In this document: one piece after another, positions 11,429 to 14,318 of the stretch
Position numbering within the stretch: position 1 is the stretch's first letter
Layout of the letters: each line of letters starts with the position of its first letter
Assembly: GCA_041662725.1 (NCBI GenBank)
Contig: JBAZRX010000004.1
Span: 2,668-66,667 of the forward strand
Direction: 5' to 3'
Origin: Minisyncoccota bacterium
GTDB taxonomy: Bacteria > Patescibacteriota > Minisyncoccia > Phycocordibacterales > PALSA-1337
Length of the DNA: 64,000 bases
Notes under the pieces: model-generated
What the model saw: only the letters and a program-made list of their open reading frames with translations
Database searches by the model: none
What the model was told of the DNA's origin: nothing
Program-made: the position numbers and the translations under genes

Positions 11429-11455
11429 TCTAGGGTCTGAGGCCTGACCTCTAGA
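11429..11455. repeat. degenerate REP-like hairpin half (CTAGGGTCTGAGGCCTGACCTCTAG)
   Basis: Shares the GAGGCCTGACCTC arm. Overlaps the stop of the pilin-like gene. Confidence 0.6.
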
Positions 11456-14318
11456 AAACCTTAAATATCTGCATTGTATTGGAGCTACTATTTGTTACAT
11501 ATGCATAATTACCGGAGACATAGACTGAAGACGGACTTGAACCGGTATTAAACGTTTTATAAGTAACAGGCGCGACAGGATTGGATACGTTTATCATCTG
11601 TAAAGTATTTGAAGTAGAATTTACTACAAAGGCATAACCATTGGAAACATAAACTTCTGTTGGGTTAGTGCCTGTGTTAACAGTACCAACAACAGTAGGT
11701 ACAGCAGGATTAGATATATTAAATATCTGCATATTATTAGAAACCATATTTGTCACATAAGCATAATTACCGGAGATATAGAGGCCTTCTGAATTTCCGC
11801 TTGTTGGAACCGAAGCAGTAACTGGAACACAATTACTACAAAATGGATCTGACATATCAAACACTTGCATTGTCTTAGACATTGTATTTACTACGTACGC
11901 GTAATTATTAGAAACCTTTACTTGCCATGGATATAGATCAGTCCATTGAAAACTCGCAGACCAAGGTGGATTTGCGGCTAAATAGAATACTTCCAATGAA
12001 TCTTCTTCCATGTTTGTTACATAGGCATAACCATTGGAAACATAAATTGAAGCTGGATAACGTCGGGTATCAATAGTATAGAGAACAGTAGGTGAAGCTG
12101 GATTGGTTATATCTATTTCCTGTATGGTCATAGAGTTAATATTTGCTACATATGCACGAGTACCGTAAATATAAACAGAAAATGGAGCTAAACCAGTATT
12201 AACACTACCAACAACTGTAGGTGAAGCTGGATTGGAAATATTTATAACCTGCATTGTATTAGAGCTGTTATTTACTACATAAGCATAATTACCAGAAACG
12301 TGAACTGAATTTGGACTAGAGCCAGTATTAACTGTACCAACAGCACTGCCTGGACTTGGTGTAGGCGTTACTGTAGGAGTTGGAGTAGGAGTAGGAGTAG
12401 GAGTCGCATCTGGAGTCACAAAAGTTGGTGTAAGTGCAATTACTTGTACATTATTAGAATCATTGTTTACCACATAGGCGTTACCGTCAATAATGATAAT
12501 ACCTGACGGGTTCGCACCTGTAGCAACCGTACTTACGCCAACTGGTGAAGCTGGATTGGATACATCAATGATATAGATTGAATTAGAATTACCATTTGTT
12601 ACGAAGATATAGTTACCTGATTTATCAACGGCTGTTGGATTTGATCCTGTATTGGCGGTACCAATAACTGTAGGGTTAGATGGATTAGATACATTTATAA
12701 TTTGTACTGTATTAGAACCACTATTTACTACATATAAAGTACCGGTATCAACTAAAGGATATACTGGACCTGAACCAGTATTAACAGTGCCAACAACTGT
12801 AGGCGAGGCTGGATTGGAAACATTTATCACTTGTACGGTGTTGGAATCAGTATTTGTTACATATACATAATCGCCATCCTTATCAATTCCTGTTGGACCT
12901 GAACCTGTAGCAACAGTACCAACAACTGTAGGCGAGGCTGGATTGGAAACATTTATCACTTGTACGGTATTAGAGTCATTGTTTGTTACATAAACATAAT
13001 TTCCAGATACAACTACATCTGTTGGAGCTAAACCAGTGTTAACACTACCAACTACAGTAGGACTACTTGGATTGGAAATATTTATTACTTGTACGGTGTT
13101 GGAATCGGTATTTGCTACGTATGCATAATTACCAGAAGTATCAATTCCTGTTGGACCTGAAATAGTTGTAACTGTACCAACAATAGTAGGACTACTTGGA
13201 TTGGAAATATTTATTACTTGTACGGTATTAGCATCATGATTTGTTACATATACATAATTACCAGAGACATCAATAGCTGTTGAACCTGAACCAGTACCAA
13301 CACTACCAATAATCGTACCGCCTGGATTTGCTGTAAAGATCAAAGTTACAGGATCGCTAGCTGGAGTATTTCCTACAGCGGCTATTCTAACTACTAGAGT
13401 GTGATTTCCATTAAGGTCTATAGTATTGAAAATTGTAGCTTCATAAGGTGTGTATGTAGTAGCGCCATCAAGTTTATATTCCATTGCTGTAGTTAATCCT
13501 GAAATAGTGTTTACAGCATCATCAATTGTTAGCGTTGGAGCTGATGGCGGTGGTGGATTTGTAGTAAAGGTGAATGTTACTGGATCACTAGCAGGAGTCT
13601 CTCCTACTGCGGCTATTCTTATCAATAAAATATGATCTCCGCTAAGACTTACACTGCTATCAAATTGTGCTTGGTTCTGAAAAGGAACGTATATCGCATT
13701 ATCAAGTTTATATTCCATAGCTGTAGTCAACCCAGAAACAGTATTCGTAAAATCGTTCATTGTTAGGACTGGCGGTGAAGGTTTCTGACCTGGATTCAAA
13801 GTAGGTGCAGGAGTAGGTACAGGAGTAGATGAAACAATTGAATCAACATCGTAATGAGTATTATTATCACTTAACACTGCACCAAATACAGCTTTAACTG
13901 CACCAGGATTGGAGTAAACAAATGAATTTTTACCATCAGCTGACCTAGGAATAACAGATAGGATACCGGCATCAACCAACTGCTGCATACTTTTTGTATA
14001 TGCAGGAGTACCTTCTGCGAATGGACCAGCGCTACAGGTGCCACCATCAGCAGAACTTGTACAAGCATAACCTTCTGCATCAGTAGAATTACCTGGTGCA
14101 TCACCCACGTTCATTGTATATAGTTTTATAGCGTTTTCTATCGTCTTAACTTCCATCATCTTTTGAGTGTCAACTGTTTTTGTTCTATAACTAGTTACAG
14201 AAGCTAAAACAACTGATGCAAGTGTTCCGATTATGGAGACAACTACAAGAATCTCAATAAGACTAAAGCCGTTCTTCTGAGAAAATAATCTCTTCTCAAG
14301 ACTTTCGCTTCGCTTCAT
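11451..14318 (-). CDS. type IV pilin-like (prepilin N-terminus) protein with Ig-like repeats and two LVIVD/YVTN beta-propeller domains
   Basis: The ORF track extends to 14414. The likely start is ATG at 14318, giving MKRSESLEKRLFSQKNG|FSLIEILVVVSIIGTLASVV, a class III prepilin signal. Two ~85-aa repeats (TISGLTTAMEYKLD...RIAAVG.TPASDPVT) follow. Then >12 repeats of NTVQVINISNPSSPTVVGTV.TG..P.....SGNYVYVTN, separated by a TPTPTPTP linker. Confidence 0.7.
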   Translation of the reverse strand: MKRSESLEKRLFSQKNGFSLIEILVVVSIIGTLASVVLASVTSYRTKTVDTQKMMEVKTIENAIKLYTMNVGDAPGNSTDAEGYACTSSADGGTCSAGPFAEGTPAYTKSMQQLVDAGILSVIPRSADGKNSFVYSNPGAVKAVFGAVLSDNNTHYDVDSIVSSTPVPTPAPTLNPGQKPSPPVLTMNDFTNTVSGLTTAMEYKLDNAIYVPFQNQAQFDSSVSLSGDHILLIRIAAVGETPASDPVTFTFTTNPPPPSAPTLTIDDAVNTISGLTTAMEYKLDGATTYTPYEATIFNTIDLNGNHTLVVRIAAVGNTPASDPVTLIFTANPGGTIIGSVGTGSGSTAIDVSGNYVYVTNHDANTVQVINISNPSSPTIVGTVTTISGPTGIDTSGNYAYVANTDSNTVQVINISNPSSPTVVGSVNTGLAPTDVVVSGNYVYVTNNDSNTVQVINVSNPASPTVVGTVATGSGPTGIDKDGDYVYVTNTDSNTVQVINVSNPASPTVVGTVNTGSGPVYPLVDTGTLYVVNSGSNTVQIINVSNPSNPTVIGTANTGSNPTAVDKSGNYIFVTNGNSNSIYIIDVSNPASPVGVSTVATGANPSGIIIIDGNAYVVNNDSNNVQVIALTPTFVTPDATPTPTPTPTPTVTPTPSPGSAVGTVNTGSSPNSVHVSGNYAYVVNNSSNTMQVINISNPASPTVVGSVNTGLAPFSVYIYGTRAYVANINSMTIQEIDITNPASPTVLYTIDTRRYPASIYVSNGYAYVTNMEEDSLEVFYLAANPPWSASFQWTDLYPWQVKVSNNYAYVVNTMSKTMQVFDMSDPFCSNCVPVTASVPTSGNSEGLYISGNYAYVTNMVSNNMQIFNISNPAVPTVVGTVNTGTNPTEVYVSNGYAFVVNSTSNTLQMINVSNPVAPVTYKTFNTGSSPSSVYVSGNYAYVTNSSSNTMQIFKVF

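What the first reader, a model, noticed from the sequence alone, without database searches (positions are those of the whole stretch)
11451..14318. Type-IV-pilin-headed protein carrying two LVIVD/YVTN beta-propellers
A class III signal peptide (KNG|FSLIEIL, prepilin-peptidase site) is fused to two Ig-like repeats and more than 12 NTVQVINISNPSSPT...SGNYVYVTN blades separated by a (TP)n linker. This is a pilus-tip or minor-pilin-like adhesin candidate. It is relevant to host attachment if the organism is an episymbiont.
Basis: partly seen in the sequence, partly recalled or inferred. Interest (0 to 1): 0.55.

Follow-up and report, generated by a model that had tools for sequence, protein, structure and literature searches.

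The report
Modular pilin carrying two beta-propellers
This gene from a tiny candidate-phyla bacterium (Candidatus Paceibacterota) encodes a pilus-subunit-type protein whose stalk carries two spacer domains and two seven-bladed propellers; it is a plausible but untested cell-attachment device of a kind already listed in databases.

Summary
The minus-strand ORF 11451-14318 encodes a 955-aa protein. It has a canonical prepilin signal (KNG|FSLIE; N_methyl and TIGR02532 above their cut-offs) and a pilin module that belongs to a large family. After the pilin module come two Ig/FN3-like repeats that are 59% identical to each other. Then come 14 LVIVD/YVTN blades, which AlphaFold folds (pLDDT 90) into two seven-bladed propellers joined by a disordered (TP)n linker. 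The organism is a Candidatus Paceibacterota (CPR) MAG.

The best reading is a modular type IV pilin that presents an 82-kDa binding module on a pilus, probably at the tip. This kind is already catalogued. Raynaud et al. 2021 list about 30 pilin+LVIVD proteins, one with 12 copies. A propeller-bearing minor pilin (PilX2) is needed for efficient host binding in Saccharibacteria.

New here is the locus comparison. Next to ribosomal protein L25, sister genomes carry three tandem pilins (two with a single propeller), a lectin-type pilin, or none. The slot is therefore a variable modular-pilin locus.

No pilus machinery lies in the 64-kb window, and the rest of the genome could not be reached. Pilus incorporation, tip location and the ligand all remain inferred. 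Verdict: a real feature, and a new member of a known but uncharacterised kind.

The parts
11451..14318 (-). Whole gene: a 955-aa modular prepilin. The mature protein is 938 aa, 97.5 kDa, pI 4.2. An alternative start at ATG 14369 would only lengthen the leader peptide.
   Evidence: ORF list and translation; Pfam and NCBIfam scans
14268..14318 (-). Class III (prepilin) leader peptide, aa 1-17, MKRSESLEKRLFSQKNG. It ends in Gly(-1), and the predicted prepilin-peptidase cut lies before Phe18.
   Evidence: Sequence; N_methyl PF07963 and TIGR02532 above their cut-offs; the leader end is nearly the same as in the paralogue-like pilin P0253 (SRKNG|FTLIE)
13824..14267 (-). Pilin module, aa 18-165, 15.4 kDa. 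It comprises hydrophobic alpha1N with Glu5 and Gly14, a long alpha1 helix, and a globular head carrying the family motifs APGN and SMQQLVDAG.L..IPRS.DG.
   Evidence: phmmer against 1.84 billion representatives gave 11,981 hits at E<=1e-3, the best 47-53% identical over aa 15-155. All 46 aligned relatives carry N_methyl. The family profile hits solved pilins (Geobacter PilA 1.6e-16, PilE, PilA, GspG). A helix at aa 20-70 is predicted, but the head is modelled poorly (pLDDT 30-40).
13773..13823 (-). Pro/Thr-rich linker 1, aa 166-182 (…SSTPVPTPAPTLNPGQKP…)
   Evidence: Sequence
13557..13772 (-). Ig/FN3-like repeat 1, aa 183-254, DUF4073-related
   Evidence: 59% identical to repeat 2. It is 40-57% identical to repeats in Firmicutes SLH and cell-surface proteins annotated PF13285. 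Pfam DUF4073 scores only 17.7 bits against a cut-off of 28.8. AF2 pLDDT is 70-88, with weak tandem-FN3 matches.
13320..13535 (-). Ig/FN3-like repeat 2, aa 262-333, DUF4073-related
   Evidence: Same evidence as for repeat 1
12435..13316 (-). LVIVD/YVTN beta-propeller 1, aa 335-628: seven 43-residue four-stranded blades
   Evidence: Pfam LVIVD and TIGR02276; AF2 pLDDT about 90-97; blade map; 129-nt DNA period at 76-80% identity
12348..12434 (-). (TP)n linker 2, aa 629-657. It is predicted to be disordered and may be an O-glycosylation site (inference).
   Evidence: Sequence; pLDDT 36 in the model
11454..12347 (-). LVIVD/YVTN beta-propeller 2, aa 658-955: seven blades, 43% identical to propeller 1
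14359..14580 (-). Conserved 73-aa small membrane-protein ORF directly upstream on the same strand. It may be co-transcribed with the pilin gene. Its function is unknown.
   Evidence: It is 73% identical to the ORF at the same position in the sister genome (L097 9790-10011), and the 89-aa ORF of L098 aligns with it at 50% identity over 36 residues. In the two sister genomes where it was found it sits directly upstream of the pilin gene or genes. No Pfam hit.

Best explanation
The gene encodes a modular type IV pilin.

Shown: the precursor has a canonical prepilin (class III) signal peptide, a conserved pilin module, two Ig/FN3-like spacer domains, and two seven-bladed LVIVD beta-propellers on flexible Pro/Thr linkers.

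Inferred mechanism: a prepilin peptidase cuts after Gly17 and methylates Phe18. The hydrophobic alpha1 helix holds the protein in the membrane. The type IV pilus machinery then inserts it into a filament built mainly from a small paralogous pilin; the candidate is the 254-aa P0253. The 82-kDa cargo is too bulky for dense packing. The protein should therefore sit at the tip, or sparsely along the shaft, with the linkers and spacers holding the propellers away from the fibre.

Inferred function: the propellers bind a surface ligand (glycan or protein) on a partner cell or substrate. Pilus retraction would then pull this ultrasmall Paceibacterota cell onto its target. The effector part evolves and is exchanged quickly at a conserved locus next to the L25 gene, as expected for a recognition molecule.
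For: The prepilin signature is above curated cut-offs and shows Gly-1/Phe1/Glu5.

The pilin module belongs to a large pilin family. All 46 aligned members carry N_methyl. Several carry other grafted modules: Dockerin, Fib_succ_major, BspA-LRR, cadherin-like, Big_9 and DUF4073 (P0327). This is the carrier-plus-effector pattern. The family profile matches solved type IV pilins and GspG.

The twin propeller is modelled with high confidence (pLDDT 90.1, 14 blades, disordered linker), and Foldseek returns tandem beta-propellers at E about 1e-20.

The same double-propeller cassette occurs behind other surface-sorting devices. Examples are the T9SS C-terminal domain, PGF-pre-PGF proteins in archaea, and Peptidase_S74 fibre proteins. 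It is therefore an extracellular module.

A 254-aa pilin, P0253, is probably from the same MAG. It comes from the same sequencing run, has the same taxon label and has a nearby NCBI accession. It shares 48% identity and a near-identical leader and alpha1N.

Independent recurrence: Parcubacteria protein P0009 combines a prepilin-like N-terminus with 14 LVIVD blades and lies in a duplicated minor-pilin cluster.

A sister genome (GroEL 86% identical) has three tandem pilins at the syntenic locus, two of them N_methyl plus a single LVIVD propeller. Other relatives have a Laminin_G_3 pilin or none there. The pilin and propeller parts are only 43-49% identical, while the neighbouring genes are 73-86% identical.

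Literature: modular pilins act as adhesins and are predicted to be tip-exposed, and about 30 IPR012902+IPR013211 proteins are listed (PMC8179133). IPR013211 is the LVIVD repeat (PMC10210494). In Saccharibacteria TM7x, PilX2, a minor pilin with a heptabladed propeller, is needed for efficient host binding, and T4P are well conserved in Patescibacteria (PMC11623550).
Against: No PilB, PilC, PilD, PilM or PilT gene lies in the 64-kb window or within 10 kb of the syntenic loci. The rest of the genome could not be inspected.

The gene is an orphan among housekeeping genes and is not in a minor-pilin operon.

The globular pilin head could not be modelled (pLDDT 30-40).

No ligand, binding site or experimental function is known for any LVIVD propeller. 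The fold matches are generic.

A class III signal peptide alone does not prove incorporation into a long pilus; the archaeal bindosome is a counter-example.

That P0253 comes from the same genome is inferred and has not been shown.
Confidence: 0.55

Rival explanations
1. Envelope-anchored surface protein or very short pseudopilus, as in the archaeal bindosome. In this reading the prepilin signal and alpha1 helix only export the propeller module and hold it at the cell surface. The module binds a substrate or the host there, and the protein never becomes part of an extended, retractile pilus.
For: The gene is an orphan with no pilus machinery nearby. The 82-kDa cargo is hard to fit into a filament. 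The same LVIVD cassette is attached in other lineages to plain surface anchors such as the T9SS CTD and PGF-type proteins. In Sulfolobus, sugar-binding proteins carry class III signal peptides and assemble into a cell-envelope 'bindosome' rather than pili (PMC3047682).
Against: The pilin module is full-sized and conserved, not merely a signal peptide. It keeps Glu5 and a GspG/PilA-like alpha1. Modular pilins that have been studied (S. sanguinis PilB and PilC) are filament subunits (PMC8179133). The long linkers and spacers suggest display at a distance from the fibre.
Confidence: 0.25
2. Pilus- or surface-displayed enzyme. In this reading the propellers are catalytic (lactonase-, lyase- or hydrolase-like) and process host or environmental polymers rather than serving as an adhesin.
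For: Pfam Lactonase (7-bladed propeller) matches at E=6e-20, with sub-threshold 6-phosphogluconolactonase hits. Raynaud et al. note that some modular pilins carry peptidase modules.
Against: The Lactonase match reflects the shared YVTN-type blade. The equivalog models score far below their cut-offs (40.8 against 370 bits). No catalytic motif was identified. LVIVD proteins are described as cell-surface proteins of unknown function (PMC2447325, PMC10210494).
Confidence: 0.07
3. Type II secretion pseudopilin, which is how relatives are labelled in NCBI ('type II secretion system protein').
For: The best NCBIfam N-terminal match is GspG (41.6 bits). Relatives P0253 and P0327 carry that label. The family head gives weak GspG hits.
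Against: The GspG score is far below the cut-off of 88.85. To my knowledge, CPR bacteria lack an outer membrane and a secretin-based T2SS. A 97-kDa pseudopilin is unknown in T2SS. The label is a generic product of automatic annotation.
Confidence: 0.03
4. Assembly or gene-calling artefact: a chimeric contig, or a fused ORF that joins a pilin gene to a separate propeller gene.
For: The sister genome has separate, shorter pilin-propeller genes at the same locus. The source is a MAG.
Against: The frame is uninterrupted over 955 codons and G+C is uniform. The repeats are diverged at the DNA level (76-80%), so collapse or expansion is unlikely. There is no second pilin N-terminus inside the gene. 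Pilin-LVIVD fusions occur independently elsewhere.
Confidence: 0.02

Closest known systems
Modular type IV pilins (Streptococcus sanguinis PilB with a vWA module, PilC with a lectin module); concept of Raynaud et al. 2021, PMC8179133
   Same: [quoted passage not shown] An adhesive function and tip exposure are predicted.
   Different: The effector here is two LVIVD propellers plus two Ig-like spacers (82 kDa, against about 35 kDa in PilB). The organism is an uncultured CPR bacterium. The gene lies outside any pil locus. Nothing has been tested experimentally.
InterPro-catalogued IPR012902 + IPR013211 (LVIVD) pilins, about 30 proteins, including an 860-residue Candidatus Falkowbacteria protein with 12 copies (PMC8179133 text and Dataset S1)
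   Same: The same domain combination (N_methyl plus multiple LVIVD repeats) in a CPR bacterium, of similar size.
   Different: Those proteins are only listed as architectures 'of unknown function'. The present protein adds two DUF4073-related spacers. For it, the two-propeller fold, the carrier family and the locus variation were worked out here. Sequence relatedness to the Falkowbacteria protein was not tested.
Nanosynbacter lyticus TM7x PilX2 (PMC11623550)
   Same: A Patescibacteria pilin-like protein with a C-terminal seven-bladed beta-propeller. It is needed for efficient host binding and is proposed as the tip adhesin of the thin T4P.
   Different: The PilX2 propeller is of the RCC1 type, and it has a single propeller. 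It has a non-canonical (non-PilD) signal peptide and lies in a pil locus. The present protein has a canonical prepilin signal, two LVIVD propellers and an orphan locus. No RCC1 match was found.
PilY1/PilC tip adhesins of diderm T4aP
   Same: A beta-propeller presented at the pilus tip for adhesion.
   Different: PilY1 is not a pilin; it docks onto a minor-pilin complex. Its propeller belongs to another family (IPR008707). No Pfam match to that family was found here.
LVIVD/YVTN cell-surface proteins of archaea and bacteria (Adindla et al. 2004, PMC2447325; YVTN propeller of the Methanosarcina surface-layer protein, Jing et al. 2002, cited therein)
   Same: The same 42-43-residue blade repeat forming seven-bladed propellers in extracellular proteins. 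A double-propeller cassette of about 620 aa aligns end to end in 96 of the 120 best hits.
   Different: Those proteins use Sec signals with S-layer, PGF-type, T9SS or other anchors. Here the anchor is a pilin.
Parcubacteria protein HYZ80_00395 (P0009, MBI3304773.1)
   Same: A prepilin-like N-terminus (AG|FTIVE) followed by 14 LVIVD blades. It is 37% identical over the propellers.
   Different: It has a different, PilV/GspI-like N-terminal module and extra CarboxypepD_reg-like and C-terminal domains. It lies in a duplicated minor-pilin cluster.
Sulfolobus bindosome substrate-binding proteins (PMC3047682)
   Same: Functional binding proteins exported with class III signal peptides.
   Different: The system is archaeal, the proteins have no full pilin module, and they are assembled by the dedicated Bas system. 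It is relevant only as the model for the main rival reading.

Membership tests
Type IV pilin / prepilin-type N-terminal cleavage-methylation protein (PF07963, TIGR02532, IPR012902) | Short charged leader ending in Gly(-1), followed by Phe/Met(+1), Glu(+5) and about 20 hydrophobic residues | tested here: met
   MKRSESLEKRLFSQKNG|FSLIEILVVVSIIGTLASVVLASV. PF07963 scores 23.9 against 21.2 bits; TIGR02532 scores 26.6 against 16.3.
Type IV pilin / prepilin-type N-terminal cleavage-methylation protein (PF07963, TIGR02532, IPR012902) | Long N-terminal alpha1 helix (about 50 residues) carrying a globular alpha-beta head ('lollipop') | tested here: inconclusive
   AF2 predicts a helix at aa 20-70, but the head has pLDDT 30-40. 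Sequence support: the family is conserved over aa 15-155. The profile matches alpha1 of solved pilins strongly and GspG heads weakly (E about 1e-3).
Type IV pilin / prepilin-type N-terminal cleavage-methylation protein (PF07963, TIGR02532, IPR012902) | Cleavage and N-methylation by a prepilin peptidase (PilD, Peptidase_A24) | not testable with these tools
   No Peptidase_A24 gene lies in the window. This needs the genome and proteomics.
Type IV pilin / prepilin-type N-terminal cleavage-methylation protein (PF07963, TIGR02532, IPR012902) | An assembly machinery (PilB ATPase, PilC platform, PilM/N/O) encoded in the same genome | not testable with these tools
   It is absent from the 64-kb window and from +-10 kb of the syntenic loci. 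T4P genes are reported as well conserved in Patescibacteria (PMC11623550). Remote relatives of the pilin family lie in a complete pilB-pilT-pilC-pilD-pilM cluster (L029).
Type IV pilin / prepilin-type N-terminal cleavage-methylation protein (PF07963, TIGR02532, IPR012902) | Polymerisation into a filament | not testable with these tools
   Requires microscopy or biochemistry.
Modular pilin sensu Raynaud et al. 2021 | [quoted passage not shown] | tested here: met
   N_methyl, then 2 Ig-like repeats, then 14 LVIVD blades. The definition is in PMC8179133.
LVIVD repeat (PF08309 / IPR013211) and YVTN repeat (TIGR02276) beta-propeller | Tandem repeats of about 42 residues that match the profile above the curated cut-off | tested here: met
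   PF08309 scores 204.9 bits against 20.2, with 12 stretches. TIGR02276 scores 94.4 against 27.85, with 7 stretches.
LVIVD repeat (PF08309 / IPR013211) and YVTN repeat (TIGR02276) beta-propeller | Each repeat forms a four-stranded blade, and the blades close into a propeller | tested here: met
   AF2 model with pLDDT 90.1 and 56 strands, i.e. 2 x 7 blades. Foldseek returns tandem propellers at E about 1e-20. This rests on a prediction, not a solved structure.
DUF4073 (PF13285) | Profile match above the gathering threshold | tested here: not met
   17.7 bits against a cut-off of 28.8. The repeats are clearly homologous (40-57% identity) to repeats in proteins annotated PF13285. I therefore file them as 'DUF4073-related Ig/FN3-like repeat', not as a member.
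T2SS major pseudopilin GspG (TIGR01710) | Equivalog score above the cut-off | tested here: not met
   41.6 bits against a cut-off of 88.85, N-terminal 62 residues only.
PilY1/PilC tip adhesin | PilY1-type C-terminal propeller (Neisseria_PilC / IPR008707); a non-pilin protein | tested here: not met
   No match to that family at E<=1, and the protein is itself a pilin. The resemblance is functional only.
TM7x PilX2-like propeller pilin | RCC1-repeat heptabladed propeller and a non-canonical signal peptide | tested here: not met
   No RCC1 family match and a canonical prepilin signal. No direct sequence comparison with PilX2 was made.

The most novel reading that the evidence does not exclude
The slot next to the L25 gene is a host-range cassette locus of Paceibacterota. 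A common pilin carrier is re-equipped by recombination with different recognition modules: one or two LVIVD propellers, Laminin_G-type lectins, dockerin, BspA-LRR or cadherin-like domains. The twin LVIVD propeller of this gene is then the receptor-binding device that decides which host cell this episymbiont can attach to through its type IV pilus.
Probability: 0.2. Interest if true: 0.65.

Novelty: new member of a known kind. Interest (0 to 1): 0.38.

Why it matters
How ultrasmall CPR/Patescibacteria recognise and hold on to their hosts is largely unknown outside a few cultured Saccharibacteria, where a propeller-bearing minor pilin has been implicated. This gene is a clean, complete example of the same design in Paceibacterota, a class with almost no cultured members.

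The comparison with sister genomes shows that the effector part of the pilin is exchanged or remodelled at a fixed chromosomal position while the neighbouring genes stay conserved. This yields a concrete, testable candidate for a host-recognition determinant. It also yields a simple comparative-genomic handle: does module type track host or habitat?

It would also give a first function to LVIVD propellers, a widespread surface module with no known ligand. If the protein turns out to be merely anchored in the envelope, it would still show that bacteria use prepilin signals for surface display beyond pili.

Tried and rejected
1. Exact look-ups of the protein with two alternative starts, and of the neighbouring L25, found nothing in the encoding-contig index. 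Only GroEL gave the source record (MFA6295027.1, 67,208-bp contig), and only a short Logan contig was readable.

2. The GTDB genome scan with aa 1-332 returned only Firmicutes DUF4073 repeats. It found no orthologue and no source genome.

3. The metagenome scan with P0253, meant to recover its 17-kb contig and any adjacent pilus genes, was swamped by the generic KNGFTLIE pattern and did not return the exact contig. Same-genome machinery therefore stayed untested.

4. The word-indexed homologue search with aa 1-332 found no pilin relatives. The exhaustive HMMER search was needed to find them.

5. AF2 of aa 1-340 was poor for the pilin head. Its Foldseek search gave only weak FN3 matches.

7. 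I tested the idea that the 955-aa gene arose by fusing the two tandem single-propeller pilin genes seen in the sister genome. The identity matrix is ambiguous: P1-a 47.6%, P1-b 46.1%, P2-a 42.8%, P2-b 45.5%, a-b 56.5%. The question is unresolved.

8. The lactonase/enzyme reading was rejected as the primary one, because only generic blade similarity supports it.

9. The T2SS pseudopilin label was rejected, because the GspG score is far below its cut-off.

10. No rRNA, tRNA or Rfam families in the window helped with taxonomy.

11. The promoter and terminator scans were uninformative.

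
Full report
OBSERVATION. The finding's coordinates delimit exactly one minus-strand ORF, from ATG 14318 to the stop codon at 11451-11453, encoding 955 aa. The frame stays open upstream to an alternative ATG at 14369 and a TTG at 14414. The N-terminus reads MKRSESLEKRLFSQKNG|FSLIEILVVVSIIGTLASVVLASV. That is a charged leader ending in Gly, then Phe1 and Glu5 (with Gly14) and about 22 hydrophobic residues. Pfam N_methyl scores 23.9 bits against a cut-off of 21.2, and TIGR02532 scores 26.6 against 16.3, so both pass. No other six-frame translation in the window has such a motif. Pfam LVIVD scores 204.9 bits (E=7e-62, 12 stretches) and TIGR02276 (YVTN) scores 94 bits.

ANATOMY.
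- Leader: aa 1-17.
- Pilin module: aa 18-165, 15.4 kDa.
- Pro/Thr linker: aa 166-182.
- Two Ig/FN3-like repeats: aa 183-254 and 262-333, 59% identical to each other.
- Propeller 1: aa 335-628.
- (TP)n linker: aa 629-657.
- Propeller 2: aa 658-955, 43% identical to propeller 1.
The mature protein is 938 aa, 97.5 kDa and acidic (pI 4.2). The cargo beyond the pilin module is 82 kDa.

PROPELLERS. AlphaFold2 on aa 334-955 with a 30-sequence alignment gives mean pLDDT 90.1. The model has 56 beta-strands, which makes 14 four-stranded blades in two separate seven-bladed propellers, with the TP linker disordered. Foldseek against the PDB returns tandem beta-propeller proteins at E about 1e-20. These are generic WD40-type hits and give no functional lead. 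At the DNA level the 129-nt blade period is only 76-80% conserved, and G+C is even across the gene. A repeat-collapse or chimera artefact is therefore unlikely.

The roughly 620-aa double propeller is a widespread cassette. In 96 of the 120 best database hits a single alignment spans both propellers. In those proteins it sits behind many different surface-sorting or fibre devices: the T9SS C-terminal domain, archaeal PGF-pre-PGF proteins, Peptidase_S74, S8 peptidase, FN3 and PKD. This marks it as an extracellular module. LVIVD repeats were defined in archaeal and bacterial cell-surface proteins (PMC2447325). They are still described as being of unknown function (PMC10210494).

PILIN MODULE. 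The word-indexed search missed relatives of the pilin module. An exhaustive phmmer search of aa 1-180 against 1.84 billion representatives found 11,981 proteins at E<=1e-3 and 114 at E<=1e-10. The best are 47-53% identical over aa 15-155, which covers the whole module including the head. The median length of the 150 best hits is 220 aa.

In an alignment of 46 of them (A3), every member has N_methyl. Several carry other C-terminal modules: Dockerin (5 members), Fib_succ_major (4), BspA-type LRR, cadherin-like, Big_9 and DUF4073. P0327 has the same pilin module directly followed by a DUF4073-type repeat, as in the target. The family therefore behaves as a carrier onto which effector modules are grafted.

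The family profile hits solved type IV pilins: Geobacter PilA at 1.6e-16, Neisseria PilE, Pseudomonas PilA and GspG. The match runs mainly through alpha1, with weak matches of the head to GspG/EpsG soluble domains (E about 1e-3). NCBIfam ranks GspG first (41.6 bits, far below its cut-off) and ahead of the minor pseudopilins. The module therefore looks major-pilin-like rather than core-minor-pilin-like. The AF2 model of aa 1-340 was made before this alignment existed. It is poor for the head (pLDDT 30-40), although it does show the long alpha1 helix at aa 20-70.

Ig-LIKE REPEATS. They are 40-57% identical to tandem repeats in Firmicutes SLH and cell-surface proteins annotated DUF4073: Paenibacillus, Clostridia, Gudongella, and P0002, which has about ten copies. 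The target itself scores below the Pfam threshold (17.7 against 28.8 bits). The model (pLDDT 70-88) gives weak tandem-FN3 matches. I treat them as DUF4073-related spacer domains.

ORGANISM AND MACHINERY. The window's GroEL is 100% identical to MFA6295027.1, 'MAG: Candidatus Paceibacterota bacterium', on a 67,208-bp contig. The next relatives are 85-90% identical and carry Paceibacterota or Parcubacteria labels. I scanned all ORFs of at least 100 aa against Pfam, and those without a Pfam hit also against NCBIfam. The window contains no PilB, PilC, PilD, PilM or PilT and no second pilin. The remainder of the MAG could not be reached.

Indirect support comes from three sources.
- P0253 is a 254-aa pilin with accession MFA6295543.1. 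It has the same taxon label, comes from the same sequencing run (SRR18595301) and has an accession 516 away from the GroEL accession. It is 48% identical to the target's pilin module, with an almost identical leader end and alpha1N. It is probably the small partner pilin of the same genome, but this is an inference.
- T4P genes are reported as well conserved in Patescibacteria (PMC11623550).
- Remote family relatives lie in a complete pilB-pilT-pilC-pilD-pilM cluster on a metagenome contig (L029). The target module is only 27% identical to that pilin.

SYNTENY: A VARIABLE PILIN SLOT. Sister genomes (GroEL 85-87% identical) keep the block GroEL-GroES-SecG-SBP5-RNase J-SLT-like protein-L25, and on the far side NifS-NifU and onward.
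- In the closest readable one (L096/L097, GroEL 86%), the space between a conserved 73-aa membrane ORF and L25 holds three tandem pilin genes. These are P0252 (285 aa, N_methyl only) and two 463-aa proteins, each with N_methyl plus one seven-blade LVIVD propeller (Pfam 157 and 225 bits).
- The window has the single 955-aa gene at the same position.
- L098 has a 307-aa N_methyl+Laminin_G_3 pilin there.
- L100 has a 281-aa N_methyl+Laminin_G_3 pilin on the other side of L25.
- L099 has none.

The target's pilin module is 44-49% identical to its relatives (the three pilins of the sister locus and P0253), and its propellers are 43-48% identical to those of the sister genome. The flanking SLT-like protein is 81% identical, the 73-aa ORF 73% and GroEL 86%. 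The locus is therefore conserved in position but turns over quickly in content. That is the pattern expected for a recognition or adhesion molecule, or for one under pressure from phage or host defence. Whether the 955-aa gene arose by fusing two single-propeller pilin genes cannot be decided from the identity matrix. In the relative, the 73-aa ORF overlaps the first pilin's start by 11 nt. In the window the alternative ATG at 14369 gives the same 11-nt overlap. The true start may therefore be 14369, which leaves the mature protein unchanged.

A second, independent case is Parcubacteria protein P0009. It has a prepilin-like N-terminus plus 14 LVIVD blades, and it lies in a duplicated cluster of minor-pilin-like genes.

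MECHANISM. Shown: a prepilin signal, a conserved pilin module, two spacers, two propellers on flexible linkers, and a variable locus.

Inferred: PilD-type cleavage and methylation, followed by insertion by the T4P machinery into a filament made mostly of a small paralogous pilin. Placement would be at the tip or sparse along the shaft because of the 82-kDa cargo. Raynaud et al. argue that modular pilins are likely tip-exposed, and that a shaft position is possible if the linker is flexible. The propellers would bind a glycan or protein on a partner cell or substrate, and retraction would bring the cells together. I put this at 0.55.

The main rival (0.25) is an envelope-anchored or bindosome-like display with no long pilus (PMC3047682). 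It is favoured by the orphan locus and the cargo size. A catalytic propeller (0.07), a T2SS pseudopilin (0.03) and an artefact (0.02) are minor alternatives.

COMPARISON WITH THE KNOWN. By definition the protein is a modular type IV pilin (PMC8179133). That paper's InterPro census of 1,219 modular pilins already contains about 30 proteins with IPR012902 followed by 1-13 copies of IPR013211. It singles out an 860-residue Candidatus Falkowbacteria protein with 12 copies, 'of unknown function'. IPR013211 is the LVIVD repeat.

The nearest experimental analogue is TM7x PilX2. It is a minor pilin with a heptabladed RCC1 propeller that is needed for efficient host binding. It has a different repeat family, a single propeller and a non-canonical signal peptide. 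PilY1 is a functional analogue only, because it is not a pilin and its propeller belongs to another family. Membership in GspG, DUF4073, PilY1 and the PilX2 type was tested and not met.

NOVELTY AND SCORE. This is a real feature that was correctly read. It is a new member of a known, catalogued and experimentally uncharacterised kind. The additions made here are the confident twin seven-blade fold, the identification of the carrier pilin family and its module swapping, and the variable L25-adjacent pilin slot. Interest is 0.38. A specialist would not be surprised by the architecture. The locus does, however, offer a tractable handle on host recognition in Paceibacterota. The most novel reading still open is that the slot is a host-range cassette locus (probability about 0.2; interest 0.65 if true).

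SEPARATE ITEM. The most striking thing seen in passing is unrelated to the pilin. A GC-rich palindromic repeat is inserted in frame into many housekeeping genes, and copies flank an IS200-like Y1 transposase gene on both sides. Details are in the list of things noticed in passing.

Noticed in passing
window 15286-44549 (24 sites, e.g. 15286-15321, 16004-16029, 23702-23740, 25295-25357, 30639-30677, 44506-44549): A GC-rich palindromic 18-nt unit, GAGGCCTCGCCTCGAGGC, often nested or in tandem (18-63 nt), occurs 47 times at <=2 mismatches; 0 are expected by chance. Nineteen of the 24 sites lie inside ORFs, in frame and without stops. Eighteen of these are in conserved housekeeping genes (NifS x3, NifU, a pyridine-nucleotide disulfide oxidoreductase x2, ADP-forming acetyl-CoA synthetase x3, PFOR alpha x2, NiFe-hydrogenase large subunit, FBP aldolase, PfkB, TGT x3, Obg) and one is in a 136-aa ORF of unknown function. 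They add peptides such as [10 protein letters not shown] or SRPRLEA in either orientation. None occurs in 1-15 kb, in 45-64 kb or in the pilin gene. It resembles Rickettsia palindromic elements or REP/REPIN-type selfish DNA inside coding sequence, and it deserves its own investigation.
   Followed up: partly
window 24529-25357: The IS200-like Y1 transposase gene (24571-25158, Pfam Y1_Tnp) is flanked on both sides by copies of the palindromic unit above (24529-24546 and 25295-25357). From my own knowledge, this is the arrangement expected for a REP-associated tyrosine transposase (RAYT) and its REP elements. This was not tested.
   Followed up: partly
window 33018-41873 (-): A giant 2951-aa ORF with two Peptidase_S74 (endosialidase-chaperone) matches near aa 2540-2600 and a weak N-terminal HTH_17 match. 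It is probably a giant fibre or surface protein. Several database LVIVD proteins also combine with Peptidase_S74.
   Followed up: no
window 9245-10594 (-): A secreted coiled-coil protein with a C-terminal SLT_2-like lytic transglycosylase region (23.0 bits against a cut-off of 24.3). It lies two genes from the pilin. It is conserved at the same position in all sister genomes examined (81%, 57% and 53% identity). It is a possible cell-wall remodelling factor.
   Followed up: partly
window 61625-63907 (-): A CBASS-like defence pair: a SMODS nucleotidyltransferase (62287-63183) next to a SAVED-domain protein (63185-63907, 127 bits). A protein with a SEC-C motif lies at 61625-62281.
   Followed up: no
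window 2908-4867 and 52354-53271: Toxin-antitoxin-type genes. A SocA/Panacea antitoxin-domain protein (3911-4381) lies within a three-gene insert between GroES and the SBP5 gene; that insert is absent from the sister genomes, which have SecG there. The second is an AbiEii toxin (52354-52965) with a DUF6922 partner (52969-53271).
   Followed up: no
L001 10001-20104 (Candidatus Parcubacteria bacterium, JACPXH010000003.1): A duplicated triad of minor-pilin-like genes: a large PilV-like protein, a 212-216-aa prepilin, and a 455-463-aa PilX-like protein. The first large gene (P0009, 1322 aa) carries 14 LVIVD blades. Its paralogue (606 aa) carries only a CarboxypepD_reg-like domain.
   Followed up: partly
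L002-L010; P0002, P0121-P0131: The Ig-like spacer repeat of this CPR pilin is otherwise typical of Firmicutes SLH and cell-surface proteins (Paenibacillus psychroresistens, Clostridia, Acidaminobacter), at up to 57% identity. This suggests sharing of a surface-protein spacer domain between phyla.
   Followed up: no
P0014, P0019, P0063, P0110: Large proteins of about 1400 aa with the same LVIVD double-propeller cassette occur in the predatory bacteria Bdellovibrio and Micavibrio. They also occur in Chlamydiae (fused to a PknH-type kinase) and in Asgard archaea. The link to lifestyles that depend on cell-cell contact is anecdotal.
   Followed up: no
window 19689-27180: A block of fermentative energy genes: ADP-forming acetyl-CoA synthetase, PFOR alpha and beta, and NiFe-hydrogenase small and large subunits. 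It is syntenic with the sister genome. Two OMP-decarboxylase-family paralogues lie at 50251-50976 and 57277-58077.
   Followed up: no
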